Origin: a virus
Taxonomy: Duplodnaviria; Heunggongvirae; Uroviricota; Caudoviricetes
Reading direction: 5' to 3' (one strand)
Length of the DNA stretch: 4,548 nt
IMG/VR virus record: IMGVR_UViG_2703718824_000007
Location: 1-4,548 of that record
Made by a program: the position numbers. Below, piece after piece: positions 1 through 3,000 of the stretch (the stretch's first letter is position 1; each line of letters begins with the position of its first letter).

Positions 1-3000
1 CCGCACACTCGCGCAGAGGAGTCTCCCTGTCGGGCTGCGGTCTCTGTTAATACGGGAATACGGCGACAATACCGCGCCATGGATAATAAGGTCGCTCAAC
101 ACACTGGCTGTAATGCAGCGGATACCATGCGGCATTTAGCGGCATTCATCGTACACTCAACGGTTAGCTCTTCATTCGTGGCATTCACCTGAAAGGTCCG
201 GGAGTGTAATTGCGTACATTTACCACTGAACGAACCTTCAACAAGAACACGACCACGCTGCAAAATACGGAACGGAATTGTTCCCTGAAAAGGTTCTACG
301 GTTACCCGTAATTTCTTCATGTATCCTCCGGATAATAAAAAGCCAGCTTAGTGCACTGAGTGCGTATATATTCCTGCGCCCCTTCCAGCTGCTTCTGCAT
401 TGTCATCAACCGTTCTCTGAGGTTGAAATAATCCCGTTCAGCGGTGTCTGCCAGTCGGGGGCCGGTTGCATTATCCACGCCGGAGGTGCCGGTGGCTTCA
501 CGCACGGTACCGGTGCAGGTGGCGTTGATCCGCAGGCGCTTACGACCAGCGGCAATATCAGCACGCAGAGTTTCATTTTCAGCTCTCGCATCGGCTAATT
601 CCCTCGAGTATTTTGCATCGAGCGCAGCAACATCACGCTGGCGCACCTGCATGTCAGTAATGGTGGCATTCGCCTGTTCCAGCTCTCTGGCTTTTTTATC
701 GCGCTGCGCTTTGTAGGTGATGGCGTTATCGCGGTAATGATTCAGCCCCAGACTAAGCGCACCACAGACCACCAGCAGAATAACAGTAAACGCGGAAAGA
801 ATTCGGTTTATGCTCACCATGCCCCCTGTCAGAAATTGCAGATTATCAGCTCGCTGACACTGCTTGTCTTACCACGTGGTACAGTATAACGATGAGCAAC
901 ATGATGAATATTCATCCCCTCAAACAATCGTCTCATTTCCTGCGAATCGTTCAGGGATATAATCATTTTGCCTTTTATTGTGCGGGCAAGTTCTGCCATG
1001 CGCTCATAATTGCAGAATGAAAAATCAATGCCGTAACCACCATCCAACCAATACGGAGGATCGCAGTAAAACAGCGTTGTCGGGCGGTCATACCGTGCGA
1101 TACAGACCTCCCAGTCAAGGTGTTCAATAGTTGCCCGCGCCAGCCGATCACGGGCTTCCTGCAATAACTGCTCTGTATTCCCGGGGATTATCTGCGGTCT
1201 GTGAGTTTTAACTCCAAATGCCCGACTGTATGCTCTTCCGCCATACGCGCACTTCTGGATAAAAAAGAAACGGACAGCCCGCTGGATATCCGTCATGTAC
1301 TCCGTGTGCTGATTTATCACCTCATTCCACATCTCACGACTGGCGAGCATCCACTGAAACTGGCGGGAAAATTCCTCCTGGTGGTACTTCACCACACGGT
1401 AGAGATTAACGATATCACTGTTTATATCGTTGATGATTTCAGCGCAGCTCGGTTTTTTCATAAAGAACAGTGCCGCACCGCCACAGAACGGTTCCACATA
1501 CAGAGTGTGCTCAGGAAATAACGGCAGAATATGTTTTGCCAGACGACGCTTCCCTCCTAACCACGGGAGAAACGGTTTTGCAGAGTTATTATTCATTTCA
1601 CCACCAGCGGATTTCCCGGATTAGAACCGCAATTGCCACAATGCGAATGGCAAATGCCGTTGCCCGAATAAATTCAGTACTCATCTGTTTAAATAAATTG
1701 TCGTCATCAGTCACTGTCACCCCACCAGCCCTGCCGAAGTCAACGCCATCCAGGCTATGGAAAGAAAAAGAGCAACCATCATTAGCGAAAATGAAACGCC
1801 GACAATCACACAGATGGTCTTCGCCAGCGTTATGAGTTTGCCTGATATCATTAGACGCCACTCCATCAATCCGTCTTTGTGATTTTTCCTTTGCCTGTAT
1901 CAGCCAGGACAAAACCAATCAGCAGATTCGCTTCGTTTATCAACGTGCGAATTTTTGATACATGCGCGGCTTTAACCAGTTTCCATTCGTTTAACCCTGT
2001 ACCAAACAGACTGGCAATGTTTTTATCCCGTTTCATGTCAGCGCATGCCTGGTTGAGTTCTTCCATCACGCTCATTTGACGAGGATTAACGACAAAACCC
2101 TTCGTCCAGTATTCATAGAGAACATCGTCGCACTCTTCCTGATACTGGATAACCTTGTCGCGGATTCCGGGTTTTACTTTGTTGGGATTGATGGTTTGTA
2201 ACCAGCCTGCAAGTTTTCGAAGTGGCAGGGACACCATATTGCGTCGTTTCCCGTCCTCAGCAACCATAACGATTTCCGTTATAGTTGACGCAAAACGCTG
2301 TCTTAACTTAGCCAACTGTGATTGCCAGGCCAGCCCCATCCCCGCAACGACAGGTTTCATGGGAACGTATGGTTCGCCGTTATGGTTAACCACATAAAGA
2401 GAATCGCCGTGAAACGGCACGGTTATCATATTCATCGGTTATTTCCTTTTAGTGATGAACCCTGCGCACAGGAATAACCAGCCCAAAGAGGGTTAACCAG
2501 ACCACTGCCGGTTATCCACCAGGGCTCATCCTGAAAGGTTCTTTGGTTTATTTACGCTTGTGCGAAGCGCAGAAATGACAAAGGCACCATTACGGTGCCT
2601 CTGCGTGAAATAATGATCCTGACTTTATTCACTTACATTTTGCCAGTTCGCAGGATTTCGTGTTATCCGTCCGCGTTGGCCAACGTCATTTTTCAGCAAA
2701 ATATTCTGCTTATCTGTCGATACCCCAGCATGCCAGCGCACTCTCCTGGTCGCGACGGGATACCTGACCGTAGCAATTATTTGAGCGAATACGGCAGTCT
2801 CTGCCACCGTCCTTAATCCACCAGCGAATCGCTTCGCAGGCACCTTTTCGATCGCCTGCATTAATTCGTTTATAAAACGTCGACGTGAAACACTTACCGG
2901 GGCCAATGTTGTAAGGACAGAATGACGCAATTCCCGCTTTCTGGGGTTCAGTCAGTGGCACTTTGATGTTTTTCTCCACCCATGCCAGCGCCTTATCACG

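What the first reader, a model, noticed from the sequence alone, without database searches (positions are those of the whole stretch)
1866..2435. Antirepressor-like protein appears to be a short form with a non-canonical C-terminal half
The N-terminal ~60 aa look like the N-terminal domain of P22 Ant-type antirepressors. At 189 aa the protein is shorter than the Ant/KilAC-type antirepressors I recall (typically 250 aa or more), and I do not recognise the C-terminal half ([27 protein letters not shown]...LVKAAHVSKIRTLINEANLLIGFVLADTGKGKITKTD). It may be a domain-swapped or minimal variant with a different partner or target.
Basis: partly seen in the sequence, partly recalled or inferred. Interest (0 to 1): 0.4.

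Follow-up and report, generated by a model that had tools for sequence, protein, structure and literature searches.

The report
Ordinary Ant–Rha chimera behind conserved leader RNA
The "short antirepressor" is an intact, common prophage late protein that joins the front end of P22 Ant to the tail of P22 Rha, so it is ordinary, but it sits behind a conserved folded RNA leader that appears to be undescribed.

Summary
The 189-aa ORF at 1866-2435 (minus strand) is real and intact. It is 100% identical to RefSeq WP_021574142.1, and related copies occur in 696 of 5426 complete E. coli genomes, with a median of 4 per genome. Only the last ~68 residues differ from Ant. They match Pfam ORF11CD3, the module that also ends P22 Rha. 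The P22_AR_N + ORF11CD3 architecture at ~188 aa is catalogued (PHROG 524) and keeps its length across Enterobacterales. Both halves are under purifying selection. The protein is shorter than most P22_AR_N proteins (median 282 aa) because the domains were shuffled, not because it was truncated. Antirepressor activity is unproven: it lacks P22_AR_C, the part P22 Ant shares with the tested Phi24B Ant. The gene occupies a fixed slot beside the endolysin and spanin genes in six genera. In passing I found a ~145-nt structured leader (2433-2577) that ends at the start codon. Covariation supports 30 of its 32 base pairs, and Rfam has no match. The same leader precedes Rha, KilA-N, ANT, Bro-N, HNH and TerB genes, including P22 rha.

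The parts
1866..2435 (-). CDS of 189 aa, the P22_AR_N + ORF11CD3 protein annotated as Ant-like.
   Evidence: ORF list. Pfam and PHROG hits. 100% identical to WP_021574142.1 in E. coli FHI_NMBU_10.
2058..2435 (-). N-terminal module, residues 1-126, homologous to the N-terminal domain of P22 Ant. The Pfam P22_AR_N match covers residues 5-113 (nt 2097-2423).
1899..2072 (-). C-terminal module. The ORF11CD3 match covers residues 122-162. Two long helices are predicted at 123-143 and 148-179.
   Evidence: Pfam PF10549, 30.3 bits against a cut-off of 25. The same domain ends P22 Rha. AF2 secondary structure. Invariant residues L127, N128, C131, D137, S142, G147, L148, W151, K152, H158. dN/dS 0.00-0.12 for residues 122-165.
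2433..2577 (-). Conserved structured 5' leader RNA that ends at the start codon. Hairpin H2 is at 2554-2570. Long stem P1 pairs 2520-2530 with 2454-2464. Inner stem P2 pairs 2508-2517 with 2471-2481. The Shine-Dalgarno is at 2443-2448.
   Evidence: Cross-genus alignments. RNAalifold. Covariance model R1 scores 96.4 bits, E 2e-18, in the window. Covariation counts. Coordinates. No Rfam match.
2573..2599 (-). Terminator-like hairpin GGCACC-gtaat-GGTGCC followed by TTTGTCATTT, lying between the endolysin stop codon and the leader.
   Evidence: Read directly from the sequence. An equivalent hairpin plus T-run with different stem sequences occurs in the other genera. The consensus terminator scan did not flag it.
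1717..1866 (-). Small hydrophobic ORF of 49 aa. Its ATG overlaps the TGA of the 189-aa gene by one base, so it is probably translationally coupled.
   Evidence: Sequence and hydropathy profile. RefSeq CDS WP_032151794.1. BP-4795 has an equivalent ORF50.
2710..3243 (-). Endolysin (Phage_lysozyme), the gene immediately upstream.
   Evidence: Pfam E 6.6e-25.
317..820 (-). Rz i-spanin, with the Rz1 o-spanin embedded at 406-591. This is the downstream end of the lysis cassette.
   Evidence: Pfam Phage_lysis E 5e-50 and Rz1 E 2.6e-21.
829..1596 (-). D12-class Dam DNA methyltransferase. Relative to BP-4795 it is an extra insertion between the small ORF and Rz.
   Evidence: Pfam. PADLOC type II/orphan MTase models. 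Comparison of the two annotated regions.
3841..4056 (-). Class II (S21-type) holin, marking the start of the lysis cassette.
   Evidence: Pfam Phage_holin_2_1, E 7e-33.

Best explanation
The ORF is an intact, ordinary member of a widespread family of two-module late proteins of lambdoid prophages. It was produced by domain shuffling, not by truncation. Residues ~1-120 form the P22_AR_N module, homologous to the N-terminal domain of P22 Ant, with a predicted KilA-N/APSES-like winged-helix fold. Residues ~122-180 form the ORF11CD3 module, a predicted helical hairpin that also ends P22 Rha. The gene sits in a fixed slot of the late operon, beside the endolysin and spanin genes. A terminator-like hairpin and a ~145-nt conserved structured leader running into the Shine-Dalgarno and ATG lie in front of it. 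How it works is inferred, not shown. I think it is made when Q-antiterminated late transcription reads through, with its translation set by the leader. It probably self-associates through the helical hairpin and uses the N-module to bind one specific macromolecular target. I judge DNA slightly more likely than a CI-type repressor as that target (about 55:45). The 'antirepressor' label rests on partial homology only.
Confidence: 0.65

Rival explanations
1. It is a genuine P22-type antirepressor. The P22_AR_N module binds CI/C2-type repressors of its own or of co-resident lambdoid prophages and inactivates them. Once this prophage enters late development, repression cannot be re-established and neighbouring prophages are cross-induced.
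For: 49% identity over 126 residues to the archetypal antirepressor P22 Ant. P22 Ant acts on the repressors of several phages (L, lambda, 21), and a role in coupling induction in polylysogens has been proposed (PMC3121763). Genomes that carry the gene have a median of 4 copies, which fits a polylysogen setting.
Against: It lacks P22_AR_C. The Phi24B Ant that measurably promotes induction resembles P22 Ant mainly in the C-terminal 104 residues (82% identity) and is encoded outside the lysis cassette (PMC3064807). A late-operon position means the protein would appear after the lysis-lysogeny decision has been taken. The N-module's closest folds are DNA-binding domains. The same slot and leader host Rha, KilA-N, Bro-N, HNH and TerB genes that are not known antirepressors.
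Confidence: 0.3
2. It is an accessory lysis factor that tunes the timing or extent of lysis. This would explain why it is kept between the endolysin and spanin genes and is translationally coupled to a small membrane protein or to the i-spanin.
For: The position next to or inside the lysis cassette is conserved across non-homologous cassettes in six genera. Its stop codon overlaps the start of a 49-aa hydrophobic ORF, or of the DUF2570 i-spanin gene in Serratia and Providencia.
Against: The protein has no signal peptide or membrane segment, and its fold resembles nucleic-acid-binding domains. Unrelated Bro-network, HNH and TerB genes use the same leader and slot. This looks like a permissive moron insertion site rather than a lysis function. 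P22 and BP-4795 have complete holin, endolysin and spanin sets without needing it.
Confidence: 0.07
3. It is a decaying remnant of a full-length (~300 aa) Ant gene and has no function.
For: It is shorter than most P22_AR_N proteins.
Against: The length is conserved across genera. The C-terminal 68 residues match a different curated domain, not a frameshifted Ant. Both halves are under strong purifying selection.
Confidence: 0.02

Closest known systems
Lysis-cassette 'Ant' of Stx-type lambdoid phages (e.g. BP-4795 ORF49/YP_001449286; RefSeq WP_021574142.1 'phage antirepressor N-terminal domain-containing protein'; PHROG 524)
   Same: Same family and, within E. coli, the same gene. It has the same 570-bp length and the same R - ant - small ORF - Rz order. 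The window as a whole is ~91% identical to BP-4795 where it aligns, and the closest protein clusters are 86-99% identical.
   Different: In this window an extra Dam methyltransferase lies between the small ORF and Rz, and a 185-aa ORF replaces YdfR between the holin and the endolysin.
Phage P22 Ant (NP_059643, immI region)
   Same: The N-terminal P22_AR_N module is homologous, 49% identical over 126 residues.
   Different: P22 Ant is 300 aa and ends in P22_AR_C. It lies in immI under Arc, Mnt and sar control. Here the tail is ORF11CD3, the gene is in the lysis cassette, there are no arc or mnt neighbours, and the leader model gives no hit at P22 ant.
Phage P22 Rha (NP_059624)
   Same: The C-terminal ORF11CD3 module. 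The same genomic slot, directly after the lysis genes. The same structured leader RNA: model R1 scores 101.8 bits, E 1.5e-19, at L003:39501-39646.
   Different: The N-terminal module is Phage_pRha, not P22_AR_N. Pairwise similarity between the two tails is weak.
Phi24B Ant (Fogg et al. 2011, PMC3064807)
   Same: Both are annotated 'antirepressor' in Stx phages, and both are partial relatives of P22 Ant.
   Different: Phi24B Ant resembles P22 Ant mainly in the C-terminal 104 residues (82% identity), which is exactly the part absent here. It is a different gene outside the lysis cassette, and it has experimental support for promoting induction.
Regulatory RNAs associated with Bro-network genes (P4 CI/seqA; Rfam C4 and isrK families)
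   Same: [quoted passage not shown]
   Different: No Rfam family, including C4 and isrK, matches the leader even at E<=10. The leader's architecture is a terminator, a short hairpin and a long bipartite stem ending at the Shine-Dalgarno.

Membership tests
P22_AR_N + ORF11CD3 late proteins (PHROG 524) | N-terminal P22_AR_N domain above Pfam's gathering score | tested here: met
   152 bits against a cut-off of 30.7, residues 5-113.
P22_AR_N + ORF11CD3 late proteins (PHROG 524) | C-terminal ORF11CD3 domain above Pfam's gathering score | tested here: met
   30.3 bits against a cut-off of 25, residues 122-162. PF10549 is precomputed in all 120 best homologues listed.
P22_AR_N + ORF11CD3 late proteins (PHROG 524) | Full-length match to the family profile and the typical length (mostly 187-190 aa, with a 174-175 aa sub-form) | tested here: met
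   phrog_524 E 1.4e-108 over residues 1-188. Homologue lengths.
P22_AR_N + ORF11CD3 late proteins (PHROG 524) | Location in the late operon next to the lysis genes | tested here: met
   Between or beside the endolysin and spanin genes in seven loci from six genera.
P22 Ant-type antirepressor (immI) | P22_AR_N module | tested here: met
P22 Ant-type antirepressor (immI) | P22_AR_C module | tested here: not met
   No PF10548 hit at E<=0.01. P22 Ant itself scores 106.6 bits.
P22 Ant-type antirepressor (immI) | immI context with arc, mnt and sar control | tested here: not met
   The neighbours are the endolysin, a small TM ORF, Dam and Rz. No Rfam RNA was found.
P22 Ant-type antirepressor (immI) | Binds and inactivates a CI/C2-type repressor | not testable with these tools
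   This needs a binding or derepression assay.
KilAC/ANT (PF03374) antirepressors | ANT (KilAC) domain | tested here: not met
   No hit. ANT-domain proteins do occur behind the same leader in other phages.
Bro-N / KilA-N proteins | Sequence match to the Bro-N or KilA-N profiles | tested here: not met
Rha family | Phage_pRha N-terminal domain | tested here: not met
   No hit.
Rha family | ORF11CD3 tail, and the slot and leader shared with P22 rha | tested here: met
Rfam C4 / isrK regulatory RNAs (tested for the leader) | Match to the covariance model | tested here: not met
   No Rfam match at E<=1 over the whole window, and only chance-level hits at E<=10 over 2400-2720.

The most novel reading that the evidence does not exclude
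The ~145-170 nt in front of the gene (window 2433-2599, minus strand) would be an undescribed and widespread cis-regulatory RNA family of lambdoid-phage late operons. It consists of a terminator-like hairpin, a short hairpin and a long bipartite stem that ends at the Shine-Dalgarno. It precedes interchangeable accessory genes: P22_AR_N+ORF11CD3, Rha (including P22 rha), KilA-N, ANT, Bro-N, HNH_3 endonucleases and TerB. It could gate their translation, as an RNase III processing site or as a two-state switch. It could also act as the conserved upstream anchor for the cassette exchange that shuffles these Bro-network genes, which would explain how the Ant-N/Rha-C chimera arose.
Probability: 0.5. 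Interest if true: 0.6.

Novelty: already known. Interest (0 to 1): 0.3.

Why it matters
For the protein itself, the useful result is a correction. Thousands of Stx-phage and prophage genes are annotated as 'antirepressor Ant', yet they share only the N-terminal module with P22 Ant. They lack the module that P22 Ant shares with the one Stx-phage Ant that has experimental support. The label should therefore be treated as unproven when modelling Stx prophage induction or prophage cross-talk. The leader RNA matters more if it is real and new. It would be a common control element for a whole set of exchangeable and often toxic accessory genes in late operons, classical phage P22 included. It would also give a testable handle on how Bro-network genes are regulated and shuffled.

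Tried and rejected
- PDB sequence search with the protein: no meaningful hit, best E 0.023 to a designed repeat protein.
- NCBIfam: no family for this protein or for four neighbouring ORFs.
- PADLOC: no defence-system model matches the protein; only the Dam methylase matches.
- Direct comparison of the C-terminus with P22 Rha is weak: BLASTP E 0.005 and hhalign probability 16%. The ORF11CD3 assignment rests on the Pfam profile.
- The consensus promoter scan found no sigma-70 promoter in 1500-2900, and the terminator scan did not flag the hairpin at 2583-2599. I could not show that the gene has its own promoter.
- Rfam gave nothing for the window or for the leader.
- RNAalifold on the MAFFT alignment paired the 3' arm with an upstream GAACC box instead of the long P1 stem. 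Manual inspection and the covariance model favoured P1. The GAACC pairing is kept as a possible alternative state. A second alternative hairpin, at alignment A6 columns 89-94 with 104-109, is poorly supported, with 69% of cells paired.
- Literature searches found no experiment on the lysis-cassette Ant, on ORF11CD3 or on an rha leader RNA. The EHEC prophage sRNAs (AsxR, AgvB, Pas) map elsewhere: 3' of stx, or between the esterase and holin genes.
- The pseudogene or truncation reading was rejected on length conservation and dN/dS.
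Full report
**1. What the window is**

All sizeable genes lie on the minus strand and form the lysis region of a lambdoid, Stx-phage-like E. coli prophage. In transcription order they are:
- a DUF826 protein (4132-4545);
- a class II holin (3841-4056);
- a 185-aa ORF without a Pfam match (3280-3837);
- a lysozyme-type endolysin (2710-3243);
- the target ORF (1866-2435);
- a small hydrophobic ORF (1717-1866);
- a D12 Dam methyltransferase (829-1596);
- Rz with embedded Rz1 (317-820 and 406-591);
- a 74-aa ORF (96-320).

The target gene is 100% identical to a gene in E. 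coli FHI_NMBU_10. There the region lies downstream of a Q-type antitermination protein gene, tRNA genes and a sialate-esterase gene, and upstream of the terminase genes. The ~59% of the window that aligns is ~91% identical to phage BP-4795 and to many Stx1/Stx2 phages.

**2. Checking the observation**

The ORF, its coordinates, its strand and its 189-aa length are correct. It has a good Shine-Dalgarno, AAGGAA, 7 nt before the ATG.

Pfam P22_AR_N covers residues 5-113 (E 9e-45). BLASTP against P22 Ant (fetched) aligns residues 1-126 with Ant residues 10-136 at 49% identity, E 8e-38.

The part that really differs from Ant is residues ~122-189, and it matches Pfam ORF11CD3 (residues 122-162, 30.3 bits, cut-off 25). 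P22 Ant is P22_AR_N + P22_AR_C. P22 Rha is Phage_pRha + ORF11CD3. In domain terms the protein is therefore the head of Ant joined to the tail of Rha.

**3. Is it unusual?**

No. A search of 5.8 billion proteins gave 2137 hits. All 120 best hits listed carry both PF10547 and PF10549. Most are 187-190 aa long; a 174-175 aa form that lacks the last ~13 residues occurs in the insect-symbiont lineages, and a few calls are 199-212 aa. They come from Escherichia, Salmonella, Photorhabdus, Xenorhabdus, Serratia, Providencia, Proteus, Arsenophonus, Sodalis and Hamiltonella.

PHROG 524, 'anti-repressor Ant', matches end to end (E 1e-108). RefSeq calls the identical protein 'phage antirepressor N-terminal domain-containing protein'. 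BP-4795 has the same 570-bp 'ant' in the same place. Of 5426 complete E. coli genomes, 696 carry the gene, with a median of 4 copies each.

- An exhaustive HMMER search found 4667 relatives.
- Nearly all of the 150 best listed share only query residues ~3-122 and are 117-580 aa long, with a median of 282.
- Their C-terminal partners are diverse: ORF6C in 14 of 150 representatives, P22_AR_C in 5, ORF11CD3 in 3, Bro-N in 2, pRha in 2, and most unassigned.

This is the known domain-swapping 'Bro network', which explicitly includes P22_AR_N and ORF11CD3 (PMC10111431).

Pairwise Nei-Gojobori dN/dS is 0.05-0.30 for the N-module and 0.00-0.12 for residues 122-165. The C-terminal alignment has many invariant residues. 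Both halves are therefore functional, and a truncation or pseudogene reading is excluded.

**4. Structure**

No solved structure is detectable by sequence.
- AlphaFold2 with 32 homologues gives a moderate model (pLDDT 74). It has a mixed alpha/beta N-domain followed by two long helices, 123-143 and 148-179.
- Fold searches with the whole model return only generic helical hairpins or nothing significant.

**5. Genomic slot**

I looked up homologues from other genera in their contigs.
- In Serratia, Providencia, Hamiltonella, E. coli and BP-4795 the gene lies directly after the endolysin gene and before the spanin gene. In Salmonella it also follows the endolysin directly, but no spanin gene was identified downstream.
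- In Photorhabdus it lies directly after Rz.
- The flanking lysis genes belong to different families: holin_2_1, 3_1, 3_3 or 8; Phage_lysozyme, GH108 or unassigned endolysins; Rz or DUF2570 with LysC.
- In Serratia and Providencia its stop codon overlaps the i-spanin start. In E. coli it overlaps the start of a 49-aa hydrophobic ORF.
- P22 rha occupies the equivalent position just after Rz.

**6. The leader RNA (found in passing, then followed up)**

Every one of these genes is preceded by 170-274 nt of non-coding DNA. These regions align across genera and fold better than shuffled controls (z = -3.9).

I aligned 25 leaders, ran RNAalifold and checked the helices by hand. The resulting model has four elements:
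- a terminator-like hairpin with a T-run;
- a short hairpin, H2;
- a long stem P1 of up to 17-18 bp, enclosing an inner stem P2;
- the 3' arm of P1 ending a few nucleotides before the Shine-Dalgarno.

In the window these elements lie at 2583-2599 (with the T-run at 2573-2582), 2554-2570, 2520-2530 pairing with 2454-2464, and 2508-2517 pairing with 2471-2481.

A covariance model with 140 positions and 32 pairs found 42 instances in the genome-derived loci and 117 in 100 IMG/VR loci. The IMG/VR loci had been retrieved with a sequence pattern.

| Alignment | Cells forming a standard pair | After column shuffling | With 3' partners slid | Pairs with compensatory changes | Shuffles reaching the observed values |
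|---|---|---|---|---|---|
| A6, genome loci | 82% | 70% | 34-50% | 30 of 32 | 0 of 500 |
| A7, IMG/VR loci | 89% | 81% | 33-50% | 30 of 32 | 0 of 500 |

Two caveats apply. The alignments were fitted to the model. The IMG/VR set was also selected on part of P1.

An alternative pairing of the P1 3' arm with an upstream GARCC box (2537-2541) is formed in 92% of cells and has one strongly covarying pair. A two-state switch is therefore possible but not established.

Rfam 15 has no match. Blastn finds the window's leader in 292 phage records, and none of the 40 listed has an RNA feature annotated under the match. Two literature searches aimed at it found no description, and the known EHEC prophage sRNAs map to other positions.

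**7. What the leader precedes**

Hits end at start codons, apart from a few cut by contig ends and the Xenorhabdus copies, which end a nucleotide or two short of the ATG.
- Besides the Ant-like gene, the model hits P22 at 39501-39646 (101.8 bits). This runs into rha and ends at an in-frame ATG 69 nt inside the annotated CDS.
- It also hits upstream of a KilA-N gene in the Hamiltonella cassette, and upstream of a TerB-family gene after the tRNA cluster in this same E. coli prophage and in Salmonella.
- In IMG/VR the downstream ORFs cluster into Phage_pRha proteins (55, plus 7 of a second type), HNH_3 endonucleases (14), the P22_AR_N+ORF11CD3 protein (9), ANT/KilAC proteins (7), KilA-N+P63C (5), Bro-N (about 3) and some unassigned.
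- 83 of 117 instances have a recognisable lysis gene within 3 kb on the same strand.
- None of the roughly 45 genome loci whose P22_AR_N gene has a different C-terminus has the leader.

The leader therefore marks a late-operon slot used by exchangeable accessory genes. It plausibly supplies the upstream homology for that exchange. That last step is inference.

**8. How the protein most likely works**

Shown:
- the domain composition;
- purifying selection on both halves;
- the late-operon slot;
- the structured leader that ends at the start codon.

Inferred:
- The gene is expressed when Q-modified RNA polymerase reads through the terminator-like hairpin.
- Translation is set by the leader. A 27-28 bp irregular coaxial stem ending next to the Shine-Dalgarno resembles RNase III processing sites in lambda and T7 mRNAs. 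This resemblance is from my own knowledge and was not tested.
- The ORF11CD3 helical hairpin mediates self-association.
- The N-module binds one target.

For the target I lean slightly to DNA, for three reasons. The N-module's fold resembles DNA-binding domains. The protein lacks P22_AR_C, the region in which the experimentally supported Phi24B Ant most resembles P22 Ant (PMC3064807). And the other occupants of the slot are DNA-interacting Bro-network or HNH proteins.

The classical antirepressor mechanism remains a serious rival (0.3). The N-module is 49% identical to that of a proven repressor binder with broad specificity (PMC3121763).

**9. Comparison and novelty**

The protein meets every feature of the P22_AR_N+ORF11CD3 family (PHROG 524). 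It fails two defining features of the P22 Ant type, namely P22_AR_C and the immI context. It is not an ANT/KilAC, Bro-N or pRha protein by sequence. It is already known as a family and even as an exact sequence, but its biochemical function has not been tested in anything I could find. The leader RNA is the only potentially new element.

**10. Verdict**

The finding is real but ordinary. Interest is low for the protein and moderate for the leader RNA found alongside it.

Noticed in passing
window 2433-2599 (minus strand): A conserved structured 5' leader RNA lies in front of the gene: a terminator-like hairpin, a short hairpin, and a long bipartite stem ending at the Shine-Dalgarno. Covariation supports 30 of 32 pairs in two alignments. 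There is no Rfam match. The covariance model found 42 instances in the genome-derived loci and 117 in the IMG/VR loci.
   Followed up: yes
L003 (phage P22) 39501-39646, rha CDS annotated 39575-40180: The same leader precedes P22 rha and ends at an in-frame ATG at 39644, 69 nt inside the annotated CDS. The real rha start is therefore probably M24 of the annotated protein.
   Followed up: partly
L001 18326-18461 (minus) and L010 1820-1963: A second, more divergent copy of the leader (54 and 46 bits) lies directly upstream of a TerB-family gene. In the E. coli prophage that also holds the window's target gene (L001), this copy lies just after the tRNA cluster downstream of Q. A similar copy is present in Salmonella (L010).
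   Followed up: partly
L091-L209 (IMG/VR loci); L006 5968-6110: Behind the same leader other phages carry Phage_pRha, HNH_3 endonuclease, ANT/KilAC, KilA-N+P63C and Bro-N genes. The Hamiltonella lysis cassette has both the Ant-like gene and a KilA-N gene, each with its own copy of the leader. The slot behaves like an exchangeable cassette site.
   Followed up: partly
window 2537-2541 versus 2454-2464: The 3' arm of the long stem can also pair with an upstream GARCC box. This pairing forms in 92% of alignment cells and has one strongly covarying pair, which hints at two mutually exclusive conformations.
   Followed up: partly
window 829-1596 and 1598-1918: A Dam (D12) methyltransferase lies between the small ORF and Rz, and it is absent from BP-4795. 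Just upstream of it, a 106-aa ORF (1598-1918, a different frame from the small ORF) matches phrog_3246 (E 5e-39). RefSeq annotates only a 23-codon C-terminal remnant there (1598-1666). This looks like the scar of a moron insertion.
   Followed up: partly
window 3280-3837 (minus strand): A 185-aa ORF lies between the holin and the endolysin (phrog_1085, with no Pfam, NCBIfam or PADLOC match). It occupies the position that YdfR holds in BP-4795.
   Followed up: no
window 1717-1866 (minus strand): A 49-aa strongly hydrophobic ORF has an ATG that overlaps the TGA of the 189-aa gene by one base. In Serratia and Providencia the i-spanin gene overlaps the same stop codon instead.
   Followed up: partly
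L049 and L090 (Acinetobacter), ~200 nt upstream of the homologous genes: These upstream regions have an analogous layout (a terminator with a T-run, a short hairpin, then a long hairpin before the Shine-Dalgarno). The covariance model does not match them, so they may be a distant variant of the leader.
   Followed up: no
window 4057-4548: Published prophage sRNAs (PasA/PasC) are reported between the sialate-esterase and holin genes of such prophages (bioRxiv 10.64898/2026.05.13.724894). I did not examine this part of the window for them beyond the negative Rfam scan.
   Followed up: no
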